IMG/VR virus record: IMGVR_UViG_3300031853_000001
Location: 96,001 to 160,000 of that record
Strand: one strand, 5' to 3'
Length of the DNA stretch: 64,000 nucleotides
Origin: a virus
Taxonomy: Duplodnaviria; Caudoviricetes
Part shown: piece after piece, positions 8,737 through 31,489 of the stretch
How positions within the stretch are numbered: the first letter of the stretch is position 1
Layout of the letters: the number at the start of each line of letters is the position of its first letter
The notes under the pieces: generated by a model
What the model was told of the DNA's origin: nothing
What the model saw: the letters and a program-made list of their open reading frames with translations, nothing else
Databases searched by the model: none
Position numbers and translations under genes: made by a program

Positions 8737-8941
8737 TTGACTTTAAGTAAAAATTCTGGTATAATATTTATGTAAGGTTGAGGGAGAGATAATAAAGTTC
8801 GAACATAAAACTCTCTGCTCTATAAGGAAAGTGGGGCCTTAAACCTTATATCAATTCCCGCTGGGCACGAGCAACAGCGTCGTTGAAACGTAAGCCGGTG
8901 CATCGACTTACGTAGGTAGGTACGTGAACCCTACCAAATTC

Positions 8942-9017
8942 GCCGTCATAACTCAATTGGTAGAGTAGCACATTAGTAATGTGCAGGTTTTCAGTTCAAG
9001 TCTGAATGGCGGCTCCA
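8942..9017 (+). tRNA. tRNA-Thr(AGT)
   Basis: Cloverleaf; GCACA-TT AGT AA-TGTGC; CCA end. Confidence 0.9.
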
Positions 9018-9497: not shown

Positions 9498-9579
9498 ATA
9501 CGCATAGTCGCACTATGCAAGGCTACAGTTCCTAACCTTGGCTTCTAAAACCTGCGAGGATAGCGGCCGAAAGAACTGA

Positions 9580-9682
9580 TAGGCACAAACAGCAATTTTC
9601 TTTATTTAAGTATTGAGAAATTGTAGTATGTTGAACGGTCAAATATTAGAAACCATAGCTATTAAGCAAAACGAGTGCCTAG
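9580..9682 (+). ncRNA. ACAGCAA-stem element 1
   Basis: TAGGCAC..ACAGCAA ... GTGCCTA-G terminal stem. Confidence 0.65.
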
Positions 9683-9729
9683 AAATAAAGTTGATACTTA
9701 ATCGGTTTCTTTTATTTGACTAATGTTAT

Positions 9730-9805
9730 GCCGGTATAGCGCAGAGTATAGAGCATCAAACTTCTAATTTGAGGGTCGAAGGTTAGAATCCTTCTACCGG
9801 CGCCA
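9730..9805 (+). tRNA. tRNA-Arg(TCT)
   Basis: TCAAA-CT TCT AA-TTTGA; variant T-loop TTAGAAT; CCA. Confidence 0.85.
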
Positions 9806-9806
9806 C

Positions 9807-9897
9807 GCGGGTTTACTCAAGTCTGGGTTAAGAGGTCTGATTCGAAATCAGATAGGATGTAAAAGTCGCAAGGGTTCAAATCCCTTAGCCCGCGCCA
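9807..9897 (+). tRNA. tRNA-Ser(CGA)
   Basis: TCTGA-TT CGA AA-TCAGA; long variable arm; GCCA. Confidence 0.9.
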
Positions 9898-9903
9898 TTT
9901 ATA

Positions 9904-10031
9904 TAGTCGCTCACAGCAATCGTTCTTTATAGAACATATGGGTTCGAATCCCATACCACGCACCAAATCGCGTAGTTAGCCAAATGGTTTAGGCAGATGT
10001 CTAACAAACATCCTTCTATTAAAGCGACTAG
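9904..10031 (+). ncRNA. ACAGCAA-stem element 2 containing a circularly permuted tRNA (anticodon loop CT AAC AA)
   Basis: TAGTCGCT/AGCGACTA stem. Inside, in order: variable arm, T arm (ATGGG-TTCGAAT-CCCAT), ACCACGC-ACCA, linker, GCGTAGT, D arm, GATGT-CTAACAA-ACATC. Confidence 0.8.
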
Positions 10032-10036
10032 TATTT

Positions 10037-10111
10037 GCCCCGTTAGCTTAACGGATAGAGCATACGGCTACGGCCCGTGAGATGTGGGTCCAATTCCTAC
10101 ACGGGGTGCCA
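10037..10111 (+). tRNA. tRNA-Arg(ACG)
   Basis: TACGG-CT ACG GC-CCGTG; CCA. Confidence 0.9.
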
Positions 10112-10294
10112 CCACTAACAATTTTGGTCTTGTAAAGATAGGGCTATGGCTTTGTTTTAGTTAATTGTTAGTTAAGAAAGACTAAAACAAGACATAATAA
10201 CTAGAATAGTTATAAAAATGTCGCGCCTTACTCAGGAAAAAGAGTCGCCCGCCGCAGGGGTGTCCTAGGTGAAATAAAATACTGCGGACTTTAT

Positions 10295-10381
10295 GGGTGA
10301 GTATGCCTAGTGGCGAGGGCATCTGGCTGTAGACCAGACACGTTAGAAACACCGTGGGTTCAACTCCTACCTCACCCACCA
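10295..10381 (+). tRNA. tRNA-Tyr(GTA)
   Basis: TCTGG-CT GTA GA-CCAGA; long variable arm; ACCA. Confidence 0.9.
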
Positions 10382-10385
10382 ATAT

Positions 10386-10464
10386 GGACCGATAGCAGAA
10401 TTGGCATATGCACTGGTTTAAGGTACCAGGTTAAGTGTGGGTTCAAATCCCACTCGGTCTACCA
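10386..10464 (+). tRNA. tRNA-Leu(AAG), short variable arm
   Basis: CTGGT-TT AAG GT-ACCAG; ACCA. Confidence 0.85.
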
Positions 10465-10468
10465 AATT

Positions 10469-10540
10469 GCCGTATTAGTTCAACGGTAGAATAATAGATT
10501 CGTAATCTAGATGCTTGTTCAAATCAAGTATGCGGCTCCA
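10469..10540 (+). tRNA. tRNA-Thr(CGT), compact
   Basis: TAGA-TT CGT AA-TCTA; GCCGTAT/ATGCGGC; TCCA. Confidence 0.75.
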
Positions 10541-10575
10541 CAACCGCATACTTATTTTTTTATAAGGAGGAAATT

Positions 10576-13512
10576 ATGAAAAACAAAATATTTGCATTAC
10601 TTATGATACTAATAATCTTTATTTCTTCGGTAAGTTTCGCGGAAACTCAATTAGAAAGCTATACAAATATTTCTCCTGAAGATGATGAAAACCATTTAGT
10701 ATATACCGAAGTGTGGGAATATTATGTTCAACCAGACGGAACTTTAAGCTCCGGCAAACCAAGAGAGGATTTATCGACTTCAGAACTTGAACCACATAAT
10801 TTCAATGATGAGGGCATTTGTATAGATTGCAATTATGAAAAGGATGTTGTATTTGAAGCAGAAGTAGAAATGTCAAAAACTTTAGGTATTGTTGATATTT
10901 CTCAAACTGTTTCTGTTTATAATTATTTTTATGATAGAGCTACTAAAAAATATAGCGTTCCAATGCAAACTGAAGTCACCCAAAATGGTATAGATTCTTG
11001 GGTACGAGTTAAATTAGATGCCTATAGAACCGTGCGTTCAACAGGTGAGCGCGCGGAAATTAGTTGGGATTTAGCAGATGTTGGTATTTTAGATAGTGAA
11101 GGTAATTTAGTTGCTGAAGGTATTTCTGATTATGTAATTATAGGTGATTACTTATATTATACTAAAATACTTCCAAAAGACTATACTCTTTACATAAGTT
11201 ACTATGGTCGTTTTGCTAATTATCAAGAATTATATAGTAGTTCTTATGTAGGAACTACTCCTAGTTCTGATGCTGTCCAAGGTGAAAACTTTTATCCTGA
11301 TTTTTCTACTGATGACCCTTGGAACAATATAGATATTGAAGCCCGTGAAAAAGACCAAGTTGAGAACAAAAGTAGTTTTGATTTAAAAGTTTTACAAGGT
11401 GAAGGTTTCGCAGATATTTCAGCCGCGGTTACTAACGAAAATGATGAAGAGAATACTAATAGATATATTCTTCCTGGAGATGAATTGAATTTATCTACTG
11501 AATTGAAGATAAATGGGGAAGAAGGGTATGTGTATGATATAATTCAAAAAATTAATTTCGGTATTGAAATGACGCAACTTTTTAATTCTATTGTAGAAAA
11601 CTTTCAAGTTTTCTTGTCTGTAGATAATCAAGATTACACAGATGTAACATCTAGTGAAATGATTGAAGGAAAAGTTTCTTTAGGTAATTATATTAAAGAC
11701 CAGGTGTTAAATTTAATTTATAAAATAAAATTATCTACTTCACTTAATAATATATTTGAAAGTGAGCCTTTTAGTGTTTTAGTAAATTATAAAGCGAAAA
11801 TCGTGGCCACACCTACCCCAAGTCCTAGTCCAACTCCATCGCCAACACCAACTCCATCACCAACTCCATCACCATCACCAACTCCATCACCAACTTTATC
11901 ACCAACTCCATCGTTATCGCCAACGCCATTCATATCACCAACTCCATCATCAACGCCAACTCTATCGCCATCACCAACGCCAACATCAACTCCAATGCCA
12001 ACATCAACTCCAACATCAACTCCAATGTTAACGCCAACCTCAACTCCTACAATTAAACCTACTGAAACGCCAACACCTACACCTACTCCAACTATAACAC
12101 CTACTCTTACGCCGACAGTCACACCTACAATTACTCCTACTGTGACGCCTACTGTTACTGTTACTCCAACAGTTACTGTTACTCCAATAATTATTGTTAC
12201 TCCAACAGTTACACCAAGTTCAACCCCAGTTATAGTTCCTACAGTTACTCCAACAGCTACTCCTACCCCAACAATAATTGTAACCTCTACGCCAACTATA
12301 ACTCCTACGCCAACAGTAACTATTAAACCTACAATTACTCCAAATGTAACTATAACCCCCACCGTAATAATTACAGAGAAACCTACTGATAAGCCAACAG
12401 TAGAACCAACTCCTACTTTGACTGTTACGCCAACTAAAACTCCCACTCCTATTCCAACTTTAATACCTACTAAAACTCCTGTTCCAACAGAAGAACCTAC
12501 TGCAACACCTATACCAACACCTACTTCAACAAGTATACCTACTGCTACTCCTACTGTTGTAATTACTCCAAGTCCAACGCCAATAATTACTCCTACTCCA
12601 ATAATAACAGCAAGTCCTACGCTAACACCAACTATAAAACCTACTCTTACTCCAAGCCCTATACCAATTATAACACCTACACCTACTCTAACAATTTCTC
12701 CAACATCAACGCCTACTTTAACTCCAATTCCAACAGAAAAACCAACGGAGGAACCTACGCGTGAACCAACAGAAAAGCCTACAGCAACATCAACACCCAC
12801 TCCAGTTCCAGCAAACCCAACTCCAACAACAGAACCCAGTTCCACGCCAACTATTACCATCACTCCAACAGTTGAGCCCACCACAGTTCCTACCATACAA
12901 CCAACTGATACACCAGTTGTCACAGTTACCCCTGAAAAACCTAGTAAGTCTCCAAGACCTACTCCCGCACCTACCGAAACAATAAAACCTACTTCAACTC
13001 CACAAATTACTAATATACCTACATTGGAACCTAAATCTACGGAGAAACAGACAAATGAACCTACAATTATACCCATATCAACAGTTAAGCCTACAACAAC
13101 TCCAAGTATCACACTAACTATTGACTCTACAAGAACTCCTATGCCAACGGAAATACTTCCCGCTGACACACCTGTCTCTATTACTCCAAGACCAACACGA
13201 ATCCCACAATCAACAGAAAATTTAATACCTACTCCAAGTCCTACTCCATTAATTACTTATTCACCAGAATATATAGAAGAAATTATAAAAAATATAACTC
13301 CTACGACTCCACAATCTTCATTTTATCAAAAAGTTAGTCAAATGACAGAAACGGAATTAGAAGATTTAATTGAGTTGTTTGATTATAATACGCCTTTATA
13401 TGGAGATTTATTACAGACAGGAGACGATATTCCTCTATATATTCCAATTTCAATTTTAATAGGACTAATGTGTATAGTTGTTTATATAATTTCAAAGAAA
13501 CGTAATCCTTGA
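10576..13512 (+). CDS. Secreted, probably cell-wall-anchored mucin-like (Pro/Thr-rich) surface protein
   Basis: N-terminal signal peptide, ~500 aa of TP/SP repeats, C-terminal LQTGD + hydrophobic helix + KKR tail. Confidence 0.8.
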   Translation: MKNKIFALLMILIIFISSVSFAETQLESYTNISPEDDENHLVYTEVWEYYVQPDGTLSSGKPREDLSTSELEPHNFNDEGICIDCNYEKDVVFEAEVEMSKTLGIVDISQTVSVYNYFYDRATKKYSVPMQTEVTQNGIDSWVRVKLDAYRTVRSTGERAEISWDLADVGILDSEGNLVAEGISDYVIIGDYLYYTKILPKDYTLYISYYGRFANYQELYSSSYVGTTPSSDAVQGENFYPDFSTDDPWNNIDIEAREKDQVENKSSFDLKVLQGEGFADISAAVTNENDEENTNRYILPGDELNLSTELKINGEEGYVYDIIQKINFGIEMTQLFNSIVENFQVFLSVDNQDYTDVTSSEMIEGKVSLGNYIKDQVLNLIYKIKLSTSLNNIFESEPFSVLVNYKAKIVATPTPSPSPTPSPTPTPSPTPSPSPTPSPTLSPTPSLSPTPFISPTPSSTPTLSPSPTPTSTPMPTSTPTSTPMLTPTSTPTIKPTETPTPTPTPTITPTLTPTVTPTITPTVTPTVTVTPTVTVTPIIIVTPTVTPSSTPVIVPTVTPTATPTPTIIVTSTPTITPTPTVTIKPTITPNVTITPTVIITEKPTDKPTVEPTPTLTVTPTKTPTPIPTLIPTKTPVPTEEPTATPIPTPTSTSIPTATPTVVITPSPTPIITPTPIITASPTLTPTIKPTLTPSPIPIITPTPTLTISPTSTPTLTPIPTEKPTEEPTREPTEKPTATSTPTPVPANPTPTTEPSSTPTITITPTVEPTTVPTIQPTDTPVVTVTPEKPSKSPRPTPAPTETIKPTSTPQITNIPTLEPKSTEKQTNEPTIIPISTVKPTTTPSITLTIDSTRTPMPTEILPADTPVSITPRPTRIPQSTENLIPTPSPTPLITYSPEYIEEIIKNITPTTPQSSFYQKVSQMTETELEDLIELFDYNTPLYGDLLQTGDDIPLYIPISILIGLMCIVVYIISKKRNP

Positions 13513-13634: not shown

Positions 13635-14273
13635 ATGAATGGATATATTTATAAAATAATTAATAAAACCAATCAAAAAATATATATTGGTAAAACTTTA
13701 TATTCTATTGAAAAAAGATTTAAAGAGCATTTAAAAGATAGCAACAGAACAGAATATCAAGATAGACCACTATATAAAGCTATAAAAAAATATGGCGCAG
13801 AAAATTTTTCAATAGAATTAGTAGAAATAGCTCCAGTAGAAATATTATCAGAACGAGAAATTTATTGGATAAAATATTATAATAGTTATCATTATGGTTA
13901 TAATGCAACACAAGGTGGAGAAGGTAAATCATTATATGATTACAATTCTATTGTAGAACAATATAAACAAGGAAAACTTATAAAAACATTAGCAGAAGAT
14001 TTTGATTGCGATCCTAGTGTAATTAAAAAAGCTATTAAAAATTCTGGAATAGATACTCATATAAATGAAATTAAATCTAAACAAATTAAAATAAGTGCGT
14101 ATGATATAAAAAATCATCAATTAGTCCAAGAATTTTCTTCTCATAAAGAAGTAGGACAATGGCTTTTTGAAAATGGTTATACTCAATCTCAAAATTGGGA
14201 TAATATTTCTGCATCAATAGGCAGAGTAAAAAATGGTTTACGTCAATCTGCTTATGGATTTAATTGGAAATAA
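13635..14273 (+). CDS. GIY-YIG homing endonuclease
   Basis: GYIYKI...IYIGKT...RFKEH; GYNATQGG; NUMOD1-like C-terminus. Confidence 0.9.
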   Translation: MNGYIYKIINKTNQKIYIGKTLYSIEKRFKEHLKDSNRTEYQDRPLYKAIKKYGAENFSIELVEIAPVEILSEREIYWIKYYNSYHYGYNATQGGEGKSLYDYNSIVEQYKQGKLIKTLAEDFDCDPSVIKKAIKNSGIDTHINEIKSKQIKISAYDIKNHQLVQEFSSHKEVGQWLFENGYTQSQNWDNISASIGRVKNGLRQSAYGFNWK

Positions 14274-16145: not shown

Positions 16146-17105
16146 ATGTCAAAATTTATTGATTTAACTGGACAGCAATTTGGAAGATGGTTAGTAAAAG
16201 AGAAATCTAGTAAAAAAACTTCTTATGGACAATATTGGATATGTGAATGCCAATGTGAAAAAAGAACTATCAAGGAAATTTGTGGGCGGTCTTTAAAACA
16301 GGGAGAATCTACAAATTGCGGTTGTTTAAAATATAAACATAAAATAGATTTAACGGGTAAAAAATTTGATTATTTATTATGCTTAAAACCTGGAGAAAGT
16401 ATTAAAAGAAATGATGGACGCTCTAAATCAACTTGGATTTGCAAATGTGATTGTGGTAAGATAATAACAATTCAAACAGAAAGCTTACGAAGTGGTCGAG
16501 CTCATAGTTGTGGTTGTAAAAATGCCGATCTTAGACGAGAAGATTTAACTGGCCAACGTTTTGGTAAACTAATAGCCATTAAGCCCGATTCTTCTCATTA
16601 TACATCTGGTGGGAATGCTTTATCTCGATGGGTTTGTCAATGTGACTGTGGTAATACTATTAGTGTAATAACGCAAGCTTTAAAAAGCGGAAATACTCAA
16701 TCTTGTGGTTGTTTAAATTCTAAAGGTGAAAGCCGTATTAAACAATGGTTATTAAAAAATAATATTATTTTTAAAGCTCAATATATTAATAAAGAAATGA
16801 AATATAATAATGGTAGTTATCCACGTTTTGATTTTGCTATTTTTAATGAGAAAAATAAATTACAATTTTTAATTGAGTATCAAGGCGATATTCATTATAT
16901 CTCTCATAAAAGTGGCTGGAATACTCCAGAAGCTCTGGAAAAAAGACAAAAATATGACGAAGAAAAACGTAATTTATGCAAAACTTTTCATATAAATTTA
17001 ATTGAAATTCCTTATTGGGAATTTGATAATATAGAAAACATTTTAAATCAACTGGTAAAACAGTATAAAATTAATACAGCAAAAATTATGGAAGAGCATG
17101 AGTAA
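16146..17105 (+). CDS. Homing endonuclease (three DLTG..W.C.C.CG..SCGC repeats + PD-(D/E)XK-type domain)
   Basis: Repeat architecture and RFDFAI..LIEYQGDIH. Confidence 0.8.
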   Translation: MSKFIDLTGQQFGRWLVKEKSSKKTSYGQYWICECQCEKRTIKEICGRSLKQGESTNCGCLKYKHKIDLTGKKFDYLLCLKPGESIKRNDGRSKSTWICKCDCGKIITIQTESLRSGRAHSCGCKNADLRREDLTGQRFGKLIAIKPDSSHYTSGGNALSRWVCQCDCGNTISVITQALKSGNTQSCGCLNSKGESRIKQWLLKNNIIFKAQYINKEMKYNNGSYPRFDFAIFNEKNKLQFLIEYQGDIHYISHKSGWNTPEALEKRQKYDEEKRNLCKTFHINLIEIPYWEFDNIENILNQLVKQYKINTAKIMEEHE

Positions 17106-18060: not shown

Positions 18061-18136
18061 AATTCTGCTATAATAATATTGTAAAAAAGAAAAGCCCTAG
18101 TCCAGGGCTGACCAAATGAAAAGGAGATTTAAAATT

Positions 18137-19756
18137 ATGACTAATTTCAATCAGGTAGTTTCTAATTTTGTTGCTTCTCAGAATTCTTACCCTGTTCGTA
18201 AGAATATTAGCAAGGCTCACGCTTCTTCCTTTATCAATGCGATGAAGCAAGAGGATAACTTCAAGTATACCGAAAATGGTGCGGTAGCCAAGAAGTCTAC
18301 TATGTCCAAGCTATACGACCTATTTGCACTTGGCGGCTCCTATCGTTCTCGCACCGAGAGCGATTGTATCGTTCTTTTTAAGAACGCATATCAGGAGAAC
18401 CCTGCCTATGCTCTAAAGTGCCTATGGTATCTTCGTGATATTCTTGAGGGTCAGGGTGAGCGTCGTTTCTTCCGTGTTTGCTTAAAGTGGCTTGCTACCT
18501 ACGACAAGCAGGCTGTACTACGCAACCTTGATACCATTGCCCGTGATGGTTTCGGCCGCTGGGATGATCTGTTTGTCCTATTTGACACTCCTTGCGAGGA
18601 TGCTGTTATGAAGCTGATTGAAAATCAGCTAGTTAGCGACCTAAAGGCGTATCAGGCCGGTGCCGCAGTATCTCTACTTGGCAAGTGGATTCCTTCCGAG
18701 AACTCCTCTTCTGCCAAGACTAAGCATAATGCTCGTCGCATTATTGCTGCTCTTCACGTATCTCCTCGTGAGTATCGTAAGACTCTATCTGCTCTGCGTG
18801 AGCGTATCCACGTTGTAGAGCGTCTTATGTCCCAGAACCGTTGGGACGAGATTGATTTCTCTCATCTACCTTCTCGTGCTGGCCTGATCTATCGCAAGGC
18901 TTTCGAGCGTCGCGATATGATTCAGCAGAAGTATCGTGAGTTCGCGAAGGATACTTCTACCAAGGTAAATGCTGGTAAGCTATATCCTTACGACGTTGTG
19001 CGTGAGGCACAGAAGGTTATGCACTGTGATTCCTACTGGAATTATGGTTCTCGCGAACCTCGCCTAGACGACACCCAGCGTCTAATGGTTAATAAGTATT
19101 GGGATAACCTACGTAATGTTTTCCCTGCGGGTGAAAACTTTAACGCTATGGTTGTTTGCGATACTTCTAGCTCTATGCTAAATGGAGCAAGCAATACTGC
19201 TTCTCCTATGCAGGTTGCGGTATCTCTGGCAATGTATGCCGCAGAGCGTGCCAACGGTCCTTTCAAGAACCATTATATCAGTTTCAGCCGTCAGGCTCGT
19301 CTGGTAGAGGTTTTTGGTGCGGACTTCTGCGACAAGGTATCTCGTATCATCCGCTCCAATGTGTGCGAGAATACCAATCTTGAAAGTGTTTTCGACCTAG
19401 TGCTAAATACTGCTATGCAGTATCGCCTACCTCGTAACGCTATGCCTAAGACTCTTGTAGTCGTGTCCGATATGGAAGTAGATCGTTCTGCGGGTATTTC
19501 CAGTCATAAGGAAACCTTTATGGAGTCTATGCGTCGTAAGTGGGCTCAGAAGTGCGGCAACCGCTATGAGTTCCCTGACGTAGTGTTCTGGAATGTGTCT
19601 GCTCGCAACGATACTTTCCTAGACGATCCTAAGAGTGGCATTACTTACGTGTCTGGCTGCAGTCCTGTACTGTTTGAGCAGATTCTGTCTGGTAAGACGT
19701 CTATTGACCTTATGCTAGACAAGCTTAACGCTCCTCGCTACAAAGACATCTACTAA
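18137..19756 (+). CDS. DUF2828-family helical-repeat + vWA protein (Ro60/TROVE-like architecture)
   Basis: TENGA..KST, LRDI..GQGERR, GRWDDL, LLGKWIPSE, LYPYDVV, MIDAS motif VCDTSSSM, VSDME, VFWNV. Own promoter; start at ATG 18137 after AAGGAG; strongly biased codons. Confidence 0.8.
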   Translation: MTNFNQVVSNFVASQNSYPVRKNISKAHASSFINAMKQEDNFKYTENGAVAKKSTMSKLYDLFALGGSYRSRTESDCIVLFKNAYQENPAYALKCLWYLRDILEGQGERRFFRVCLKWLATYDKQAVLRNLDTIARDGFGRWDDLFVLFDTPCEDAVMKLIENQLVSDLKAYQAGAAVSLLGKWIPSENSSSAKTKHNARRIIAALHVSPREYRKTLSALRERIHVVERLMSQNRWDEIDFSHLPSRAGLIYRKAFERRDMIQQKYREFAKDTSTKVNAGKLYPYDVVREAQKVMHCDSYWNYGSREPRLDDTQRLMVNKYWDNLRNVFPAGENFNAMVVCDTSSSMLNGASNTASPMQVAVSLAMYAAERANGPFKNHYISFSRQARLVEVFGADFCDKVSRIIRSNVCENTNLESVFDLVLNTAMQYRLPRNAMPKTLVVVSDMEVDRSAGISSHKETFMESMRRKWAQKCGNRYEFPDVVFWNVSARNDTFLDDPKSGITYVSGCSPVLFEQILSGKTSIDLMLDKLNAPRYKDIY

Positions 19757-19851
19757 GGTTAAGTATAAATTTGAGATGGAGAAATCCATCTCTTTTTTAT
19801 TTGACTTATTATAAAAATTTTGATATAATATTTATAGAAAGGATGAGGAAA

Positions 19852-20208
19852 ATGAACTATTACATTTATTTGGATGATGTGCGCGAAGATGATACTTGGT
19901 TTCGACAGCATTTGAATACCGAGCATTGGATTCCTTGTGTTGTTCGTTCTTATGAGGAAGTAATTCATATTCTTGACCATATGCAAGATTATATGGACAA
20001 GGATGAAGTGCTTATTCTCGACCTTGATCACGACCTTGGCGAAACTGAAGATGGTTACAATGAACTCGCGCACACAGGATATGATGTTTGTAAGTGGATG
20101 ATAGAAAATCATTTCCCTGCCTGCTATTTTCACATTCATAGCATGAACGCTAGTGGTTCTGCGAATATGCGACAACTTCTTACTCACTATGGCTATAAGG
20201 AGATTTAA
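19852..20208 (+). CDS. Cyclic-phosphate-processing receiver-like domain protein
   Basis: IYLDDVR...DLDHDLGE...TGYDVCKWM...IHSMNASG. Confidence 0.75.
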   Translation: MNYYIYLDDVREDDTWFRQHLNTEHWIPCVVRSYEEVIHILDHMQDYMDKDEVLILDLDHDLGETEDGYNELAHTGYDVCKWMIENHFPACYFHIHSMNASGSANMRQLLTHYGYKEI

Positions 20209-20667: not shown

Positions 20668-21318
20668 ATGCGTAAGTACGAAAAAATTGAAACTCTATTT
20701 GCCCGCGATATGGAAGGCACTAAAAAGCTAATGCCGGGTATTTTTCGTGACCCGACTATTGAGTTTCTTCAGTATTGTGATTGGGTATGGACTGAGAAGA
20801 TAGACGGCACTAATATCCGCGTGTATTGGGATGGCCATAAGGTTACTTTTAGTGGCCGTACCGATAACGCAGTTATTCCCGCAGAACTTATCACTCGTCT
20901 AAATGAACTTTTTAGCGGTGAGACTAATGCTCAAATTTTTGAGCAGGCTTTTGGCGATAAGGAAGTTATTCTATTCGGTGAGGGCTATGGTCGTAAAATT
21001 CAGAAGGGCGGTGGCAAGTATATTGCCGATGGCGTTGATTTTATTCTATTTGACGTTCTAATTGGTGAGAATTATCAAGAACGTGAATGGGTTGAAAGCA
21101 CCGCCAAGATGTTTGGTATTAAGGTCGTCCCAATTGTGGGTGGCGGTTCGCTTGAAGACGCTGTAAATTATGTTAAGAAGCACCCTAATTCGATAATTGC
21201 GGAAGATGTACGAGAAATGGAAGGTATTGTATGTAGACCCGCTGTTGAGCTACGTGACCGTCGTGGTAATCGTATTATTGTAAAAATTAAGTGGGAAGAT
21301 ATAAAGGAGCTTATTTAA
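20668..21318 (+). CDS. ATP-dependent RNA ligase (Rnl2-like nucleotidyltransferase)
   Basis: Motif I TEKIDGTN, ILFGEGYG, FILFDV, EGIVCRP, IVKIK. Confidence 0.8.
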   Translation: MRKYEKIETLFARDMEGTKKLMPGIFRDPTIEFLQYCDWVWTEKIDGTNIRVYWDGHKVTFSGRTDNAVIPAELITRLNELFSGETNAQIFEQAFGDKEVILFGEGYGRKIQKGGGKYIADGVDFILFDVLIGENYQEREWVESTAKMFGIKVVPIVGGGSLEDAVNYVKKHPNSIIAEDVREMEGIVCRPAVELRDRRGNRIIVKIKWEDIKELI

Positions 21319-21665: not shown

Positions 21666-22636
21666 CAGCGCAAAAGGAGAGCAAGCTGTTACTCCGAGTG
21701 AACTTATCGGCGCTATATAAATAGGAAAAACCAATTAAATACAGTATTTTAAATGAAGTAATAACTGCCATAGAAGTCATGACCTATGATAGAAGACACT
21801 TCATTTAAAGCAACCGGTTGATTTGCGCAATTAAGTCGTTAGAAGCGACTAGAGGGAGAGACCCTGACTAATAAGCAAGTCCATTCTATGAAATGGTAAT
21901 GTCGAAAACCAATTAGTGTAAAGTAGCATACCTTACCAATAATAAGGAGAATCAGCGTAGCGAACTGAATTGGCGTACTGGAATTTGTTGTCCAGAGTAG
22001 GCATAAATCGAGCAGCAATGCGGTAATACCCGTGCACAGGTAGCTAAATTACCCTGGCTCACCAATTATTTTAGAAGATAAGACTTGAGCTTATCTCTGG
22101 CTATGAAGCGAGTGCCGTGCCGCAGATGCGGTGCTTAGTGGAGCCTATGTGGGTTTAGCGTGTCAACCACAATGCGGATAGGTATTAACCGAAAGAAAAC
22201 ACGCTTTAATGGCGCTTTATCCCAAGCCTTTTCGCGGCGGCGCTATAAGTACCAAAAGGTATTATTTAATACTGAGCGTGAAACTAAGAGGGAACTGAAG
22301 GCTGTGCCAAGGTGAAAGGCTAACAGTCCGAGTGATGACCGTTGAAGCCATTCGGTGCATAGTGGTGCCGTTAAAGCGATGGATGCATACATCGTCCACT
22401 TCATTTAATGACTTGATGCTTATCAAGCTAGAACTATCGAGGACGTGTGCGGTGGGAATGTTTGAGATTAGATGTAGATAGTTTAAGTATAGACTTGCGG
22501 TGCAAGCCTAATCAACTGGCGTTCCGCGGCCAGAATACTTTGCGGGCTTTATTGATTCGGGAGGAAGTGTCCGTAGATGAACTTCTCGGAGTAATCGCCA
22601 TAATCGAATCAGCCGTGCGGCTGGCATAATGCCGCA
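21666..22636 (+). ncRNA. Large structured ncRNA region (GOLLD-like size and context; identity unverified)
   Basis: ~970 nt with raised GC, many hairpins and no credible ORF, flanked by tRNAs. Confidence 0.45.
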
Positions 22637-22640
22637 ATAT

Positions 22641-22760
22641 GGCACCGTAGTGCAAAGGTAAGCACGCCGGCCTTTGTGAGATAGGGTAAAGTGCAGTTCA
22701 ACTCTGCCGTCTCGCACCACAAGCCGGTGATGCTGGGTTCAAGTCCCGCCGGTGCTTCCA
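22641..22760 (+). tRNA. tRNA-Glu(TTC) interrupted at 35/36 by a 44-nt mini-tRNA (22676-22719)
   Basis: GGCACCG/CGGTGCT acceptor, D arm, CCGGC-CTTT|insert|CAA-GCCGG. Removing the insert gives CT TTC AA. Confidence 0.8.
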
Positions 22761-22763
22761 AGC

Positions 22764-22832
22764 AAAGAAAAGAGAAGCATAAATCTGATCAATTTATGAG
22801 ATAATGATGCCCTAACATCAAGTCTTTTCTTT
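22764..22832 (+). promoter_or_regulatory. Homing-endonuclease leader motif, copy C
   Basis: AAAGAAAAGA/TCTTTTCTTT; AGC; hairpin; GAGATAAT; GATG-CCCTAA-CATC. Loop pairs with TTAGGG (22844-22849). Confidence 0.7.
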
Positions 22833-22856
22833 AATAAATATTATTAGGGTGATATT

Positions 22857-23498
22857 ATGAGTAGAAAATTAAGCCAACAACAATTTGAAGAAAGAGTATA
22901 TAAGACATTTGGAGATAAATATTCTGTAGTAAGTGAATATTTAGGTCAAAGAAAACCTATAACTTTACATTGTAATATACACAATATTGATTTTACAGCT
23001 ACTGCTGAATGTTTCATGAGACAAGCTAATGACACTCGCTCAAGTTGTCCAGAATGTACTGCAGAAAAACGAAGACAAGAAAATAATTCTGTAAAATGTG
23101 AATGTGCTTATTGTCATAAAATTTTTTATTTGTCTCAATCTAAAGCTAATAATTCTAAAAGTGGATTACATTTTTGTTGTAGAGAACATAAAGATTTAGC
23201 TCAAAGAATAGATAGCGGTGAACAATTCGATATAATGCGCCCGCCTCATTATAATGCAATAAAAAATGATACAGGAACAATTGGGACATATCGTATTTTA
23301 GCTTTTAGAAATTATCCCCATAAGTGCGCTGTTTGTAATTGGGACGAAGATGAAGATATATTACAAGTTCATCATATAGATGAAAATAGACAAAATAATT
23401 CTTTAACCAATTTAATTATTTTATGTCCTAATTGTCACGCAAAAATAACTTATGGGAAATATAAATTAATTGATCGAAAACAAATTATATTAAAATAA
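22857..23498 (+). CDS. HNH homing endonuclease
   Basis: CAVC...LQVHHIDENRQNN...LCPNCH. Confidence 0.9.
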   Translation: MSRKLSQQQFEERVYKTFGDKYSVVSEYLGQRKPITLHCNIHNIDFTATAECFMRQANDTRSSCPECTAEKRRQENNSVKCECAYCHKIFYLSQSKANNSKSGLHFCCREHKDLAQRIDSGEQFDIMRPPHYNAIKNDTGTIGTYRILAFRNYPHKCAVCNWDEDEDILQVHHIDENRQNNSLTNLIILCPNCHAKITYGKYKLIDRKQIILK

Positions 23499-23520
23499 AA
23501 TTAAATAGGAGTTGTTGTAT

Positions 23521-23995
23521 ATGGCAATCCACGATAGAGCTTATACTCGTACAAAAAGTTGGACTAAGGCACTTCGTAAATACCACATTGATAGAGATAT
23601 TTCCGCAGGTAAATGGTGGCCTATGTACAATAATCTCCATCAATATGCTGATAATAAAATTCATTGTTCCTGTCCAATGTGTAGTGCTAAAACCAACAAC
23701 AAAAAGCGCAATGGGCCTCGTGGATGGGAACCTTCAAAAAATTGGTCTATTTCAGATCAAAAGAAAATTAATAGTATGGAAAGTCAAGTTGAGGAATTAA
23801 ATGATAACTTGGAATAATTTTAAATGTGATTTTCCGTATCATCGTATAGATAATTTTGGCGATTATAGTGAAATGTGGTGCGGACGATTAGAAAAATATA
23901 TTTCTAATTGTAATGATTGCCCATTTAACCAAAAAGAAAAAGAGATGCGTGAAGACCCCAATAATTATCAAAAATGGCTAAAATTACATAATTGA
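23521..23995 (+). CDS. Two small Cys-containing hypothetical ORFs (23521-23817, 23801-23995)
   Basis: RBS present; CSCPMC motif in the first. Confidence 0.55.
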
Positions 23996-24329
23996 CTTTT
24001 TCTAAAAATTATAGTATAATATATATAGTTAAGGGAAAGGAGATAAATTATTTATGAATTATCTGGATGATTTTCTTGTTGGCCCGCAGAGCGATGAATA
24101 TGATTGGTATTATGAAAATGAAATTCCTGATCCAGAATGGGACAGGAGATGTCGAGGATTGGATAAACTAATACTTGACAAGTAATAAAAATTATGTTAT
24201 AATATTTATAGAAACAAGGAAAGGATGATAATTGTGCGCTTTACGACTCGCAAGTCTCGTACTGTGTTTTCTTCTTCTTGGAGTCGCCGCAAGCAGGCAG
24301 AGATGCTTGATGAGTGGCAGATTTAAACG

Positions 24330-24865
24330 CCAGATTAGTTCAGCAAATTGCGGCCAATATTAATGGCGTTACCGCATTCCTTACTTATAGTTTGGAAGTA
24401 CAAAGGTTTTGAGTAATTGAACCGGTTAAATCAATGCTTGGCGCCGGGTCCACCCTACTGGGCTCGTAAACAAATCGCGGCCAATGGTGAGAAGCGCCAC
24501 CGCTATAAAGGAATGCCCCACGACGGGTTTCGTAAGTTATGTTGAAAGATATATACTAGCTTGGAATAAGCACACGCAAGAGTTGCTATAATGCGCAACA
24601 GAAAAATCCTTTATAATAGGTTAACCTACGGTCGGATGGGAGACGATAAACCCCTTTCAAGCAGTCTCTTTGGCGGTTGGACTTAAAATAAACCACCTAG
24701 GTCAGCAGGACTGATAACTATATATTATAGAAGCAATCTCTTTTATAATATATAGAAAACGCAGCCATAATCCTGTCGTTGCGGCGAACAACGATAAAAA
24801 TCGCTAGTAGCCCAGATACTTACTTAAAGGGTTTTCGCCGCGTTAATCTTGGTATCGGATTGCGG
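24330..24865 (+). ncRNA. Cluster of structured non-coding RNAs
   Basis: GCATTCCTT/AAGGAATGC long-range stem, long AT hairpin ~24718-24755, pseudoknots; no ORF. Confidence 0.45.
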
Positions 24866-24871
24866 TTGTAT

Positions 24872-25006
24872 CCACGCGTGGTGCAAATGGCGAGACACAG
24901 CGGACTTACGTAGGCCCAGTGGCTTGTTGGAGAGCAACACTCCTTCCTACGACCAAAATCCGCGACGCAAGATACATTGCTGGTTCAAATCCAGTCGCGT
25001 GGACCA
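24872..25006 (+). tRNA. tRNA-Leu(TAA) interrupted at 35/36 by a 47-nt mini-tRNA (24909-24955)
   Basis: CCACGCG/CGCGTGG-ACCA; GCGGA-CTTA|insert|AAA-TCCGC; long variable arm. Removing the insert gives CT TAA AA. Confidence 0.85.
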
Positions 25007-25154: not shown

Positions 25155-25925
25155 GTGGTTAATATGCCACTAAAATATAAATTAGAAGAAGTATTAACAG
25201 AAAATTCTCCTGTTACTAGAAAAGTTTTAAAAGATTATTTAGCAAAATATAATGTTTTAGAATATAAATGTGCAATATGCGATAACAGAGGAGAATGGAA
25301 TGGAGTTTCTTTAACATTACAAATAGACCATATTAATGGTATAAGAGATGATAATAGAAAAGAAAATCTTCGTTGGCTATGCCCGAATTGTCATTCTCAA
25401 ACTGATACTTTTACTGGGAAAAATAAAACTAAAAAAGAAGTTGTTAATTTTACAGTAGAAGAAGCTATTAAAGCATTACAACAAACTGAAAATGTAAATC
25501 AAGCAACCAAATTAATCGGCTGTGCGCAAGGTGGAGCAAATTGGATTAGAGTAAATGATATTAAAAAAAAGTATGGAATTATTCAATCTGGGGATTTAAA
25601 GAAAGAAGAAAAACAAAAGTTTAAAGAAAATCATATTAATGCGAAACCAATTAACTCTATTAAATTATGTAAAAAATGCGGCCGTCCGTTATCGACAAAA
25701 GATGCTGAATACTGTCAAACTTGTATACACGAATTTCAACGAAAATGTGAATGGCCTTCTCGCGAAGAACTTAAAAAATTAATTCGCTCTACACCTTTTT
25801 TACAAATAGGTAAAAAATATAATGTAAGCGATAATGCTGTAAGAAAATGGTGCTTAAATTATGGTTTGCCATCTAAAAAGATGGAAATAAAAGCAATTTC
25901 AGATGAAGATTGGAATAATATTTGA
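25155..25925 (+). CDS. HNH homing endonuclease with C-terminal HTH
   Basis: CAIC...LQIDHING..DNRKENLRWLCPNCH. Confidence 0.9.
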   Translation: MVNMPLKYKLEEVLTENSPVTRKVLKDYLAKYNVLEYKCAICDNRGEWNGVSLTLQIDHINGIRDDNRKENLRWLCPNCHSQTDTFTGKNKTKKEVVNFTVEEAIKALQQTENVNQATKLIGCAQGGANWIRVNDIKKKYGIIQSGDLKKEEKQKFKENHINAKPINSIKLCKKCGRPLSTKDAEYCQTCIHEFQRKCEWPSREELKKLIRSTPFLQIGKKYNVSDNAVRKWCLNYGLPSKKMEIKAISDEDWNNI

Positions 25926-26311: not shown

Positions 26312-26379
26312 AGGCGGACACAGCAAATAACTATTTAAGCAATAATCTTTTAAATTATGTAGCTAAAATAACCGCCTAG
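26312..26379 (+). ncRNA. ACAGCAA-stem element 3 carrying a Lys(TTT)-like anticodon stem-loop
   Basis: AGGCGG..ACAGCAA ... ATAAT-CTTTTAA-ATTAT ... CCGCCT-AG. Confidence 0.7.
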
Positions 26380-26725: not shown

Positions 26726-27120
26726 AAAATATTAAAGCGTGCTTTTCCTTGCTGTACACTTGTTGAAAAGCCAAATGTTCCCGTATGAGAATACGCAGGT
26801 TATACCTGTATATTGAAATCCCATAAGACGTCACAAAGGAATGGATAGAAATTACAATGGGCCATTCAGAAAGTAGAACACTTTAATATTTGACTTTTTC
26901 TGAAAATTCTGGTATAATAATTACAGAAACAAGGAAAGGACAAAATAATGAAGATACTTGTTGTAAATAAAGATGAGAAAATACAATTAATTCATCTCCT
27001 AAAACAAGAAATACGCAAACCTGGTTGTCCTTATGAATTACTTACTATTTTAGAAAAACTTAGTCCTGGAGACTATGAATATCTTTTTACAACTATGAAA
27101 TAAAAGAAAGGAAGTAGATA

Positions 27121-27690
27121 CTCCATTTAATAAAATGGTTGAACCAAGTGAAGAAGAGTTAACCACTCTGCTTGGGCTATCTAAATAACAGCCATACGAT
27201 TTAGCGGGATACTACTAAATCGCGGCCACGAAATCAGTAATGATTAGTGATAAGGAGAAACTCTTAATGTTAAGGATAGGCGCTTGGTTATTCGCTAACA
27301 AAAACTTGGCTCCTTGCGGCGTCGTAATAGAAAGCAGATTGAGCAGATTTGCCGAACCCAGAAAAGACTTTAAGGTGGCAGTTAAAGGGACTCTGGGAAA
27401 GCCATAAGACGTTTGGTGTCGTTGAAACCTAGAAATAGGATATAAGCAAGGTTCACAGATAAAGTAGCCTAAAACGACAATGATTCTAATAAGTAATTTA
27501 ATTAGAATAATGTGCTGAATGGTTTAGGTGAAATTTGGGAGTAATCAGTCTCCCCGTTGCTAGCCAAAAGGCAGGATGAAGAAGTTAAAGGGTCGCTACC
27601 TTTGGCTCAGCCTTCATCTTCAACGTGGTTGAATATGTTAGAAGGATAATACAAGTACGGCGAAGGTCGCAACGGTTTTATTAAATGGGG
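27121..27690 (+). ncRNA. ~570-nt large ornate ncRNA (ROOL-like)
   Basis: 21-nt terminal helix CTCCATTTAATAAAATGGTTG / CAACGGTTTTATTAAATGGGG, many internal stems, no ORF. Size and tRNA context fit ROOL. Confidence 0.6.
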
Positions 27691-27795: not shown

Positions 27796-28356
27796 ATGCC
27801 AAGGAAAATTGATTTAACAGGAAAAATTTTTGGAATCATACAGGTAGATTCGCCAGCACCAAGTCAATCTGGTAAAACGTATTGGAATTGTCATTGTACA
27901 ATTTGTAATACTAAAAAAGTAATTCAAGGTTGCGCCTTAAAAAATGGTTCTATTAAAACTTGCGGTTGTGGTTGTTCTTTTCATAAACAAAATACTTCAA
28001 AAATTTGTGAAATTTGTGGAAAAGAATTTATTCCAATAAAATTTGGCGGTGCTAGAAAATATTGTTATGAATGTTCTCCGCAAGAAGGCTCAGAAACAGA
28101 TAAGCGCACAGTTATAAGACGAGCTTTAAAAAAGATGCTAGTTGATTATAAAGGTGGAAAATGTGAACGATGTGGATATAATAAATGTTTACGCGCATTA
28201 GAATTTCATCATTTAAATCCGTCTGAAAAAGATTTTGGAATTTCTGGATGTATAACTAAAAATGTAGAAGAATTAAAAAATGAAGTTAATAAATGTATTT
28301 TAGTTTGTTCTAATTGTCACGCGGAAATTCATGAAGAATTAGACGAGGCCCGTTAG
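27796..28356 (+). CDS. HNH homing endonuclease; stop codon lies inside tRNA-Asn
   Basis: CERCG...ALEFHHL...CILVCSNCH. Confidence 0.85.
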   Translation: MPRKIDLTGKIFGIIQVDSPAPSQSGKTYWNCHCTICNTKKVIQGCALKNGSIKTCGCGCSFHKQNTSKICEICGKEFIPIKFGGARKYCYECSPQEGSETDKRTVIRRALKKMLVDYKGGKCERCGYNKCLRALEFHHLNPSEKDFGISGCITKNVEELKNEVNKCILVCSNCHAEIHEELDEAR

Positions 28357-29538: not shown

Positions 29539-29657
29539 TAGACTCAAACAGCAATATTTTACTTGCATGTGGGGCCGGAAGTATTGGTTTAACTCCAGTT
29601 CTCTCCACCACATGGAGAGATAGTGTAACGATAGCACGCCGTATAGTATGAGTCTAG
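29539..29657 (+). ncRNA. ACAGCAA-stem element 4 containing a circularly permuted tRNA
   Basis: TAGACTCA/TGAGTCTA stem; T arm ATTGG-TTTAACT-CCAGT, TCTCTCC-ACCA, CAT linker, GGAGAGA, D arm GTGT-AACGATA-GCAC. Confidence 0.8.
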
Positions 29658-31289: not shown

Positions 31290-31409
31290 TATGCGGTCAC
31301 AGCAATTTTAGATTTAATCTAAGTGTCATCGGTTCGATTCCGATTATTCCAGCCATTTAATTTGGAGTGTAGCTCAATTGGTAGAGCATTAGAATTATAA
31401 ACCGCATAG
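31290..31409 (+). ncRNA. ACAGCAA-stem element 7 containing a circularly permuted tRNA opened at the anticodon loop
   Basis: TATGCGGT/ACCGCATA; TCTAA-GTGTC-ATCGG TTCGATT CCGAT-TATTCCA-GCCA; linker; TGGAGTG-TA-GCTC AATTGGTA GAGC-A-TTAGA. Confidence 0.85.
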
Positions 31410-31420
31410 TACGATATTTA

Positions 31421-31489
31421 AGACGCTTACAGCAATTTAATACAGTCGCACACATAAATAATTACATGACTAAGTAATAGAGCGTCGCG
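31421..31489 (+). ncRNA. ACAGCAA-stem element 8
   Basis: GACGCT-T-ACAGCAA ... AGCGTC. Confidence 0.6.

What the first reader, a model, noticed from the sequence alone, without database searches (positions are those of the whole stretch)
9904..10031. Permuted tRNA opened between anticodon arm and variable arm, with an intact AAC anticodon loop
Seen: order is variable hairpin (GTTCT-TTAT-AGAAC), T arm, acceptor-3' + ACCA, 4-nt linker, acceptor-5', D arm, complete anticodon arm GATGT-CTAACAA-ACATC. The permutation point differs from 31290, so the ACAGCAA handle can be grafted at different places. The body is type-II-like but the anticodon reads Val(AAC), and there is no ordinary tRNA-Val in the window. 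Inference: trimming the linker would give a two-piece tRNA held together by the handle.
Basis: partly seen in the sequence, partly recalled or inferred. Interest (0 to 1): 0.78.

Follow-up and report, generated by a model that had tools for sequence, protein, structure and literature searches.

The report
Permuted tRNA-mimic RNA with Ro60-like partner
This is a small phage RNA built like a complete tRNA whose two halves are in swapped order and whose ends are clamped by a conserved "handle"; it is most likely not a decoding tRNA but one of a large, uncatalogued family of Y-RNA-like tRNA mimics that travel with a Ro60-shaped phage protein.

Summary
Window 9904-10031 has an 8-bp terminal helix, ACAGCAA, a V hairpin, a T arm, a 7-bp acceptor with ACCA and a 4-nt linker, a D arm and a 5-bp/7-nt anticodon-like arm. 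Un-permuted in silico, ARAGORN calls it tRNA-Val(AAC).

Eighteen homologues from other phages keep all six helices: 92.5% of cells are paired and 23 of 33 pairs show compensatory changes.

The decoding reading fails. The "anticodon" takes nine different triplets inside an invariant CU...AA frame. Only this copy has CCA; the other 17 close the acceptor with a 3-7 nt loop.

The handle (helix + ACAGCAA + 3' G) closes at least six RNAs in this window and hundreds in related phages. It lies beside a DUF2828 gene (18116-19756) whose model matches only Ro60/TROVE rings over its full length, next to cREC and RNA-ligase genes. I found the same pairing in Listeria A511, a mycobacteriophage, a Felix O1-like phage and a KVP40-like phage.

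Best reading: a YrlA-like Y RNA of a divergent Ro60 system. RNase P opening at the CCA linker remains possible, as in M. smegmatis YrlA.

This scan has already noted the family in at least 43 other genomes. I found no paper or Rfam family for it.

The parts
9904..9911 (+). handle helix, 5' strand (8 nt)
   Evidence: Pairs with 10023-10030. 5 of 8 pairs show compensatory changes in 18 homologues, and the helix is 96.5% paired.
9913..9919 (+). ACAGCAA motif, single-stranded, directly 3' of the handle's 5' strand
   Evidence: Positions 2-7 (CAGCAA) are invariant across the 18 homologues of A4; the first A is G in three rows. With a closing 7-mer it occurs 143 times in 1.2 Mb of related loci, against 6-18 for four scrambled controls.
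9922..9935 (+). variable-arm-like hairpin (5 bp, 4-nt loop)
   Evidence: This is the weakest helix in the alignment, at 72% paired.
9938..9954 (+). T arm (5 bp, loop TTCGAAT)
   Evidence: 100% paired, 3 of 5 pairs covary, and the GGTTC.A..CC core is invariant.
9955..9976 (+). acceptor-like stem-loop: 3' strand 9955-9961, ACCA 9962-9965, linker 9966-9969, 5' strand 9970-9976
   Evidence: 7 of 7 pairs covary. ACCA plus linker occurs only in this copy of the 18.
9977..9994 (+). U8/A9 equivalents plus D arm (3 bp, 10-nt loop with GG)
   Evidence: The A14, G18, G19 and A21 equivalents are invariant and the U8 equivalent is nearly so (at least 90%).
9996..10012 (+). anticodon-like arm (5 bp, 7-nt loop, triplet AAC at 10003-10005)
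   Evidence: 5 of 5 stem pairs covary. The CU...AA loop frame is invariant and the triplet is hypervariable.
10023..10031 (+). handle helix, 3' strand, plus invariant 3' G (10031)
9580..9681 (+). sister handle RNA A (non-tRNA cargo)
   Evidence: Orthologues lie in L016 and L029.
26312..26377 (+). sister handle RNA C (short, non-tRNA cargo)
29539..29656 (+). sister handle RNA D (permuted tRNA-like, ACCA plus 3-nt linker)
31290..31408 (+). sister handle RNA E (YrlA-like: V hairpin, T arm, acceptor with GCCA plus linker, D arm; no anticodon arm)
   Evidence: Rfam YrlA RF02553 at 30.4 bits, E 5e-5, below the gathering score of 69. Also.
31422..31486 (+). sister handle RNA F (short; 6-bp helix)
18116..19756 (+). 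DUF2828/DUF7788 protein with a predicted Ro60-like fold (helical ring plus vWA); proposed partner of the handle
   Evidence: Pfam. PHROG 850 'RNA-binding protein', E 3e-120. AF2 model pLDDT 76.7. The top 13 Foldseek PDB hits are all Ro60/TROVE over the full length.
19771..20208 (+). cREC (cyclic-phosphate-processing receiver) domain protein
   Evidence: PF20274, E 1.8e-18.
20668..21318 (+). ATP-dependent RNA ligase
   Evidence: PF09414, E 4e-18. PHROG 548.
8737..8765 (+). promoter-like site upstream of the tRNA array that contains the element
   Evidence: 11 of 12 consensus matches with an extended -10. This is a consensus match only.
10526..10553 (+). terminator-like hairpin plus T run at the end of the array
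   Evidence: This is a consensus match only.

Best explanation
The element is a non-decoding tRNA mimic of the Y-RNA kind.

1. It is transcribed inside the phage's tRNA operon. The enzymes that trim the flanking tRNA-Ser (ends 9897) and tRNA-Arg (starts 10037) set it free.
2. It folds into an L-shaped, tRNA-like body whose acceptor end is closed.
3. Its own 5' and 3' ends form an 8-bp helix followed by single-stranded ACAGCAA and a 3' G.
4. This handle is the binding site for the phage's Ro60-like DUF2828 protein, encoded 8 kb downstream on the same strand.
5. The tRNA-shaped cargo, including an anticodon-like loop whose triplet is free to vary, then presents a tRNA look-alike to host or phage proteins that act on tRNA. 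Candidates are nucleases, modification enzymes and repair enzymes such as the neighbouring cREC protein and RNA ligase.

Shown here: the anatomy, covariation of all helices, the family, the Ro60-like predicted fold, and gene linkage across unrelated phages.

Inferred: binding of the handle by the protein, release by tRNA processing, and the downstream role.
For: - Structure: six helices with 23 of 33 compensatory pairs in 18 homologues. The tRNA elbow nucleotides are invariant or nearly so.
- Family within related loci: helix plus ACAGCAA occurs 143 times (139 on the DUF2828 gene's strand) in 80 loci, against 6-18 for four scrambled controls. There are 324 distinct elements in 194 loci. Cargo ranges from short hairpins to permuted or unpermuted tRNA bodies.
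- Family in this window: six copies.
- YrlA link: sister element E matches the tRNA-like core of Rfam YrlA.
- Protein: the DUF2828 model's best 13 PDB matches are all Ro60/TROVE over 520-605 alignment columns, probability 1.0.
- Linkage found starting from the RNA: 23 of 26 large phage records found only through a handle 16-mer encode DUF2828, and 15 of 16 that are at least 90% complete do.
- Linkage in unrelated cultured phages: handle RNAs lie within 0.05-0.7 kb of the gene in Listeria A511, mycobacteriophage Wyatt2 and the Felix O1-like phage nataliec. In Vibrio phi-pp2 they lie mostly in the upstream tRNA array.
- Context: cREC and RNA ligase are the next genes.
- Precedent: Ro60 binds a terminal helix plus an adjacent conserved motif in YrlA and in phiLo Yrl RNAs (PMC4201824, PMC12135203).
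Against: - No binding, expression or end-mapping data.
- The protein is not a sequence-level TROVE member. PF05731 is absent, and sequence and profile searches of the PDB find no Ro60.
- The handle motif differs from the GNCGAAN0-1G/CGAA motif of known Ro60 partners.
- This element itself does not hit the YrlA model.
- In this phage the nearest handle RNAs lie 6.5-8 kb from the gene, not adjacent.
- Co-occurrence within a phage clade could reflect shared descent. Only the four unrelated cultured phages speak against that.
Confidence: 0.7

Rival explanations
1. Nicked Y-like RNA. This is the same family and partner, but in this phage the RNA is opened. RNase P cuts between 9969 and 9970, exonucleases trim the linker back to ACCA, and the two pieces stay together through the acceptor stem and the handle. 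This is a variant of the best explanation rather than an alternative to it. The confidence given is for cleavage happening.
For: - The element has a 7-bp acceptor, discriminator A, CCA and a 4-nt linker.
- M. smegmatis YrlA, also with a 7-bp acceptor, is cut by RNase P and carries CCA in vivo, and both halves stay on Rsr (PMC4201824).
- NCCA plus a 1-8 nt linker follows the acceptor in about 18 of 55 permuted family members (about 1 expected by chance), with varying linkers and covarying stems.
- All three permuted RNAs of this window have it.
Against: - 17 of 18 homologues of this RNA type lack CCA and have 3-7 nt loops.
- The acceptor has an A.C mismatch.
- NCCA plus a short spacer is also what a junction between two of this phage's CCA-encoding tRNA genes looks like (19 of 20 encode CCA). 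It may therefore be a relic of origin rather than a signal.
- No RNA data.
Confidence: 0.3
2. True permuted tRNA gene. After linker removal the two-piece molecule is charged, with Val or a type-II amino acid, and decodes GUN codons for a phage that has no tRNA-Val.
For: - ARAGORN accepts the un-permuted sequence as tRNA-Val(aac).
- A35, C36 and A73 fit the E. coli ValRS identity set (from my own knowledge, not tested here).
- ARAGORN calls no tRNA-Val in the phage.
- The phage uses other A34 tRNAs: Thr AGT and Leu AAG.
Against: - The triplet differs among homologues with near-identical bodies: GAT against GTT, and AAC against AAT.
- The acceptor is closed and has no CCA in 17 of 18.
- A roughly 36-nt handle region sits in the variable region.
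- The phage has no splicing endonuclease, RtcB or CCA-adding enzyme.
- The same handle closes RNAs with no tRNA parts at all.
Confidence: 0.04
3. The handle is not a protein-binding tag for DUF2828. Instead it is a processing or mobility signal, for example a nuclease site or the ends of an intron-like or mobile cassette that inserts into tRNA genes. The Ro60-like gene is then only a clade-mate.
For: - The handle sits at different points of tRNA bodies.
- The same phage holds tRNA genes split by small CCA-ended inserts and many homing endonucleases (unverified notes).
Against: - The elements are free-standing between intact tRNAs and do not interrupt them.
- The handle is conserved next to DUF2828 in four unrelated phage families.
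- Strand bias is 139 to 4 with the gene.
Confidence: 0.1
4. Decaying relic of a tandem tRNA duplication, that is, a pseudogene with no function.
For: The CCA-spacer-acceptor junction looks like a tRNA-tRNA gene boundary.
Against: Compensatory changes occur in every helix. The elbow nucleotides and the handle are invariant or nearly so across phages whose DUF2828 proteins are only about 50% identical.
Confidence: 0.02

Closest known systems
YrlA, the tRNA-like Y RNA bound by bacterial and mycobacteriophage Ro60 (Rsr); Rfam RF02553; Chen et al. 2014, PMC4201824
   Same: The order of parts is the same: terminal helix with an adjacent conserved motif, V hairpin, T arm, closed acceptor stem-loop, D arm. 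It is encoded near, and on the strand of, a Ro60-type gene. The M. smegmatis member is opened by RNase P and carries CCA.
   Different: The motif is ACAGCAA, not GNCGAAN0-1G. The protein is DUF2828, not Pfam TROVE. This element adds a full anticodon-like arm. There are many copies per genome with swappable cargo. It is not detected by the Rfam model.
Thermus phage phiLo Ro60 with Yrl1/Yrl2 (PMC12135203; PDB 9KOP, 9L5Y)
   Same: A phage-encoded Ro60 ring with phage-encoded partner RNAs that have a 5'-3' stem next to a short conserved motif. 9KOP is the best structural match of the DUF2828 model.
   Different: The phiLo RNAs use CGAA and are not described there as tRNA-like. The protein is a recognisable TROVE member.
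Class I RNAs of Dictyostelium (PMC7919456; search pattern in PMC5054030)
   Same: [quoted passage not shown] The rest of the RNA is variable. The 3' end runs ...C-U-G-U, and the phage handle ends ...CT[TA]-G-T.
   Different: These are eukaryotic RNAs of 42-65 nt with no tRNA cargo. The known binder is the RRM protein Rnp1A. Rfam reported no Class I family match for this window's elements. Any link to DUF2828 is untested.
Circularly permuted tRNA genes of Cyanidioschyzon merolae (Soma et al. 2007; from my own knowledge)
   Same: The 3' half lies upstream of the 5' half, joined by a short linker after CCA or the acceptor.
   Different: Those mature through a bulge-helix-bulge motif, a splicing endonuclease and a circular intermediate into decoding tRNAs. 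Here there is no such motif or enzyme, the anticodon is not conserved and the acceptor is usually closed.
Two-piece tmRNA from permuted ssrA genes
   Same: A permuted gene whose product can be a two-piece molecule with a tRNA-like domain.
   Different: There is no tag reading frame or pseudoknots. ARAGORN finds no tmRNA, and Rfam tmRNA models give only faint T-arm matches on the sister element.

Membership tests
Canonical or permuted decoding tRNA | Complete cloverleaf with conserved elbow nucleotides | tested here: met
   ARAGORN on the un-permuted sequence. Invariant or nearly invariant U8, A14, G18, G19, A21 and T-loop equivalents.
Canonical or permuted decoding tRNA | Anticodon kept among orthologues | tested here: not met
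   Nine different triplets in 18 homologues, within an invariant loop frame.
Canonical or permuted decoding tRNA | Free or releasable acceptor end with CCA | tested here: not met
   17 of 18 homologues have a closed 3-7 nt loop without CCA; only this copy has ACCA plus a linker.
Canonical or permuted decoding tRNA | Maturation machinery for permuted genes (BHB motif, splicing endonuclease) | tested here: not met
   The termini form a plain 8-bp helix. PF01974 is absent from the phage. The host was not examined.
Canonical or permuted decoding tRNA | Aminoacylation and use in translation | not testable with these tools
   Needs acid-gel Northern blots and charging assays.
YrlA (RF02553) | tRNA-like module in the order V, T, closed acceptor, D | tested here: met
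   Sister element E hits model positions 23-87.
YrlA (RF02553) | Score above Rfam gathering threshold | tested here: not met
   No YrlA hit at E <= 10 for this element. E scores 30.4 against a threshold of 69 bits.
YrlA (RF02553) | GNCGAAN0-1G motif near the 5' end | tested here: not met
   ACAGCAA stands at that place. The motif definition is from PMC4201824.
YrlA (RF02553) | Encoded near a TROVE (PF05731) Ro60 gene on the same strand | tested here: not met
   No PF05731 in the phage. A DUF2828 gene with a Ro60-like fold lies 8 kb away on the same strand.
Ro60/Y-RNA type ribonucleoprotein (broad sense) | Ring of helical repeats plus vWA domain | tested here: met
   AF2 model, pLDDT 76.7. The top 13 PDB matches are all Ro60/TROVE, TM about 0.5, probability 1.0. 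This is a prediction, not a solved structure.
Ro60/Y-RNA type ribonucleoprotein (broad sense) | Partner RNA closed by a terminal helix with an adjacent conserved single-stranded motif | tested here: met
Ro60/Y-RNA type ribonucleoprotein (broad sense) | Physical binding of RNA by the protein | not testable with these tools
   Complex prediction takes no RNA. EMSA or RIP is needed.
Helix + ACAGCAA 'handle' RNAs linked to DUF2828 (uncatalogued; noted earlier by this scan) | Covarying terminal helix, 1-2 nt, ACAGCAA, variable cargo, 3' strand followed by G | tested here: met
Helix + ACAGCAA 'handle' RNAs linked to DUF2828 (uncatalogued; noted earlier by this scan) | Co-occurrence with a DUF2828 gene, also in unrelated phages | tested here: met
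Dictyostelium Class I RNAs | Short terminal stem directly followed by a motif ending in ACAGCAA | tested here: met
   Motif-level match to the published pattern (PMC5054030; PMC7919456).
Dictyostelium Class I RNAs | Match to an Rfam model; dictyostelid origin; 42-65 nt | tested here: not met
   No such hit at E <= 10. The source is a phage and the RNA is 127 nt.

The most novel reading that the evidence does not exclude
The handle RNAs are a programmable display system. The Ro60-like protein holds the handle, and the cargo presents a tRNA body whose three 'anticodon' letters are swapped freely between phages. Each RNA would then bait or titrate a particular host enzyme that reads anticodon loops, for example an anticodon nuclease. 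In this phage the CCA-linker copies would in addition be opened by RNase P into nicked, CCA-ended molecules that the neighbouring cREC and RNA-ligase enzymes can act on.
Probability: 0.15. Interest if true: 0.85.

Novelty: new variant of a known kind. Interest (0 to 1): 0.62.

Why it matters
DUF2828 is a large protein family of unknown function. It occurs in 698 cultured phage records, including Felix O1-like, A511-like, KVP40-like and mycobacterial phages, and Pfam also lists it in eukaryotes.

A conserved RNA handle next to these genes gives the family a testable RNA partner. It also extends the Ro60/Y-RNA idea to a second protein lineage with a different recognition motif.

This element is the most tRNA-complete kind of cargo I saw. 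Its conserved anticodon-like loop with a freely changing triplet points to a role in the contest over tRNAs between phage and host.

The same motif in the unexplained Class I RNAs of Dictyostelium hints at a much wider distribution.

Tried and rejected
- Rfam at gathering thresholds finds nothing at 9904-10031. At E <= 10 it finds only weak partial tRNA matches and no YrlA. Short element C gives nothing.
- Pfam TROVE is absent from the phage.
- Sequence and profile searches of the PDB with the DUF2828 protein find no Ro60. Only the fold search links them.
- blastn of 9500-10600 against cultured phages matches only a tRNA-Arg, so there are no close cultured relatives.
- Literature searches for DUF2828 and for Ro-like phage RNAs found no description of the handle.
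- The three tRNA-mimic families of the 2026 preprint (skipping-rope, DUF2693-FD, salivarius-1) have other architectures and did not hit.
- No splicing endonuclease, RtcB or CCA-adding enzyme is encoded by the phage.
- Global alignment of the un-permuted body to 1405 phage tRNAs gives only weak matches, mostly Leu, Ser and Tyr. This fits a long-arm body plan but names no parent tRNA.
- Complex prediction was not used because it takes no RNA.

Full report
**Setting.** The window is bases 96001-160000 of a 180,932-bp IMG/VR phage record rated 100% complete. Bases 8.9-32.8 kb of the window hold 20 ARAGORN tRNAs plus four more Rfam tRNA hits, a ROOL RNA and a drum RNA. The finding fills the gap between tRNA-Ser (9807-9897) and tRNA-Arg (10037-10111). 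A strong promoter-like site (8737-8765) and a terminator-like hairpin (10526-10553) bracket this tRNA block. The element is therefore probably co-transcribed with the tRNAs and released by their trimming. That step is inferred.

**Observation.**
- The two ends form an 8-bp helix (9904-9911 with 10023-10030).
- ACAGCAA follows one base after the helix's 5' strand.
- The parts then run V hairpin, T arm, acceptor 3' strand, ACCA, a 4-nt linker, acceptor 5' strand, D arm, and a 5-bp/7-nt anticodon-like arm with AAC in the middle of the loop.
- The fold is far better than shuffles (z = -4.25).
- With the halves swapped in silico, ARAGORN reports an 89-nt long-variable-arm tRNA-Val(aac).
- ARAGORN calls no tRNA-Val in the phage.

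**Homologues.** I fetched 80 related phage loci through the neighbouring DUF2828 protein. I fetched 114 more through a 16-base handle word. A covariance model built from seven hand-picked homologues then found 18 distinct full-length members of this exact architecture at 86-143 bits.

On their alignment the six helices are 92.5% paired and 23 of 33 pairs show compensatory changes. By helix these are acceptor 7/7, anticodon stem 5/5, handle 5/8, T 3/5, V 2/5 and D 1/3. No shuffle in 500 reaches this, and slid controls give 33-48%. The nucleotides that build the tRNA elbow are invariant or nearly so. The permuted cloverleaf with its handle is therefore a selected RNA structure.

**What speaks against a decoding tRNA.** In the 18 homologues C32, U33, A37 and A38 never change. 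The three middle letters read GAT (7), AAC (2), TAA (2), GTA (2), AAT, GTT, AGA, TGA and GAA, sometimes on nearly identical bodies. The acceptor is closed by a 3-7 nt loop without CCA in 17 of 18; only the window's copy has ACCA plus a linker. The phage encodes no tRNA-splicing endonuclease, RtcB or CCA-adding enzyme.

**The handle defines a family.** Six RNAs in this window share it. Three carry permuted tRNA-like bodies and three carry unrelated short cargo.

In the 80 loci, ACAGCAA preceded by a 7-mer whose exact complement lies 35-260 nt downstream occurs 143 times. Of these, 139 are on the strand of the DUF2828 gene. Four scrambled motifs give 6-18.

The consensus is [AT]AG[AG]C plus three free pairs, one or two bases, ACAGCAA, cargo, the complementary strand, then G. 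In all 194 loci there are 324 distinct elements.

Cargo classes are:
- short hairpins;
- YrlA-like permuted bodies;
- the same plus an anticodon arm (this finding);
- unpermuted D, anticodon and T arms with the handle in place of the acceptor;
- partial tRNAs.

**The likely partner.** ORF 18116-19756 carries DUF2828 and DUF7788 and PHROG 850 "RNA-binding protein". Its AlphaFold model (pLDDT 76.7) matches Ro60/TROVE proteins over its full length for the 13 best PDB hits. These include Xenopus, human, Deinococcus and Thermus-phage Ro60. After them come only vWA domains. Sequence methods do not see this link. The next genes encode a cREC domain and an RNA ligase, which are RNA-repair components discussed for jumbo phages in PMC7824862.

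**Linkage.** Of 26 large phage records found only through the handle word, 23 encode DUF2828. Among those at least 90% complete, 15 of 16 do.

DUF2828 homologues occur in 698 cultured phage records. In four unrelated ones I found handle RNAs on the gene's strand:
- three in tandem just upstream of the gene in Listeria A511;
- three just downstream in mycobacteriophage Wyatt2, where the gene is annotated "Ro-like RNA binding protein";
- four among the tRNAs downstream in the Felix O1-like phage nataliec;
- several in the tRNA array upstream in Vibrio phi-pp2.

This argues against mere shared descent.

**Comparison with known systems.** The plan matches YrlA: a terminal helix with an adjacent motif, then V, T, closed acceptor and D (PMC4201824). 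Sister element E hits the tRNA-like core of the Rfam YrlA model below threshold.

The differences are the motif (ACAGCAA against GNCGAAN0-1G/CGAA), the protein family, the extra anticodon arm, and the many copies with modular cargo.

The same "short stem then ...ACAGCAA" signature defines the Class I RNAs of Dictyostelium (pattern in PMC5054030; PMC7919456). Rfam reported no Class I family match for the window's elements.

**The two-piece idea.** It cannot be dismissed.
- M. smegmatis YrlA has a 7-bp acceptor, is cut by RNase P, carries CCA in vivo, and both halves stay bound to Rsr.
- Across the family, NCCA plus a 1-8 nt linker follows a 7-bp acceptor strand in about 18 of 55 permuted members, against about one expected by chance. 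Linkers differ and stems covary. All three permuted RNAs in this window have it.
- On the other side, 19 of 20 tRNA genes here encode CCA and are spaced by 1-4 nt. The motif is therefore also what remains if a permuted gene arose from the junction of two neighbouring tRNA genes.

I put cleavage of this copy at about 0.3 and a role in decoding at about 0.04.

**Earlier notes of this scan**. The same handle family with the same Ro60-like reading was recorded before in at least 43 other genomes. I reached that reading before looking at the notes. I re-tested the fold, the enrichment, the linkage and the Felix O1-type case myself. The Class I resemblance was a lead from those notes, which I checked in the literature.

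**Verdict.** The element is a new architectural variant, with a full cloverleaf including an anticodon-like arm, within an uncatalogued Y-RNA-like family tied to a divergent Ro60-like protein.

Noticed in passing
window 29539-29656 and 31290-31408; L062:2824-2957, L029:2905-3043, L016:2477-2602, L043:4677-4827, L007:21379-21510: In the sister subfamilies D and E, NCCA directly after the 7-bp acceptor strand is kept across distant phages, while the linker (1-8 nt) and the stem sequence change. This suggests selection for a CCA end, and so possibly for opening by RNase P. Decayed versions (ACTA, ATCA) also exist.
   Followed up: partly
all 194 loci: Anticodon-like 7-nt loops displayed by handle RNAs are most often CTTTTAA (14, the tRNA-Lys UUU loop) and CTGTTAA (11, the tRNA-Asn GUU loop). 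Both are classic targets of anticodon nucleases. AT-rich composition has not been ruled out as the cause.
   Followed up: partly
window 27120-27688 and 22098-22209: A full-length ROOL RNA (315 bits) and a drum RNA (70.8 bits) lie in the same tRNA/handle-RNA region as the Ro60-like gene.
   Followed up: no
window 8942-9017 and 10386-10464: The phage carries A34 tRNAs other than Arg: Thr(AGT) and Leu(AAG). These are unusual for bacteria and their viruses.
   Followed up: no
window 10469-10537: Rfam calls a tRNA here (52 bits) that ARAGORN misses. Its loop reads as anticodon CGT (Thr). The terminator-like hairpin overlaps its 3' end.
   Followed up: partly
window 9962-9976 versus 10461-10475: The ACCA-linker-acceptor junction inside the element closely resembles the natural junction between tRNA-Leu(AAG) and the next tRNA. 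This hints that this copy gained its CCA and linker by recombination with a tRNA-tRNA boundary.
   Followed up: no
window 13635-14273, 16146-17105, 22857-23498, 25155-25925, 27796-28356: Five homing-endonuclease-type genes (one GIY-YIG, four HNH) are interspersed with the tRNA and small-RNA genes. Earlier notes of this scan report tRNA genes split by small CCA-ended inserts at 22641-25006.
   Followed up: no
window 40769-42028, 43532-44806, 52899-54380, 56393-58771: The phage encodes a PIN-PhoH fusion protein, a xanthine/uracil-family permease, and both gyrase/topoisomerase IV-type subunits.
   Followed up: no
L195:9699-9962 (Listeria phage A511), L196:11458-11705 (Mycobacterium phage Wyatt2), L197:12078-12911 (Escherichia phage nataliec): These well-studied cultured phages carry unannotated tandem handle RNAs right next to their DUF2828 genes. 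In A511 an RtcB-type 'tRNA splicing ligase' and a second RNA ligase lie 1.3-4 kb downstream. These phages are ready experimental systems.
   Followed up: partly
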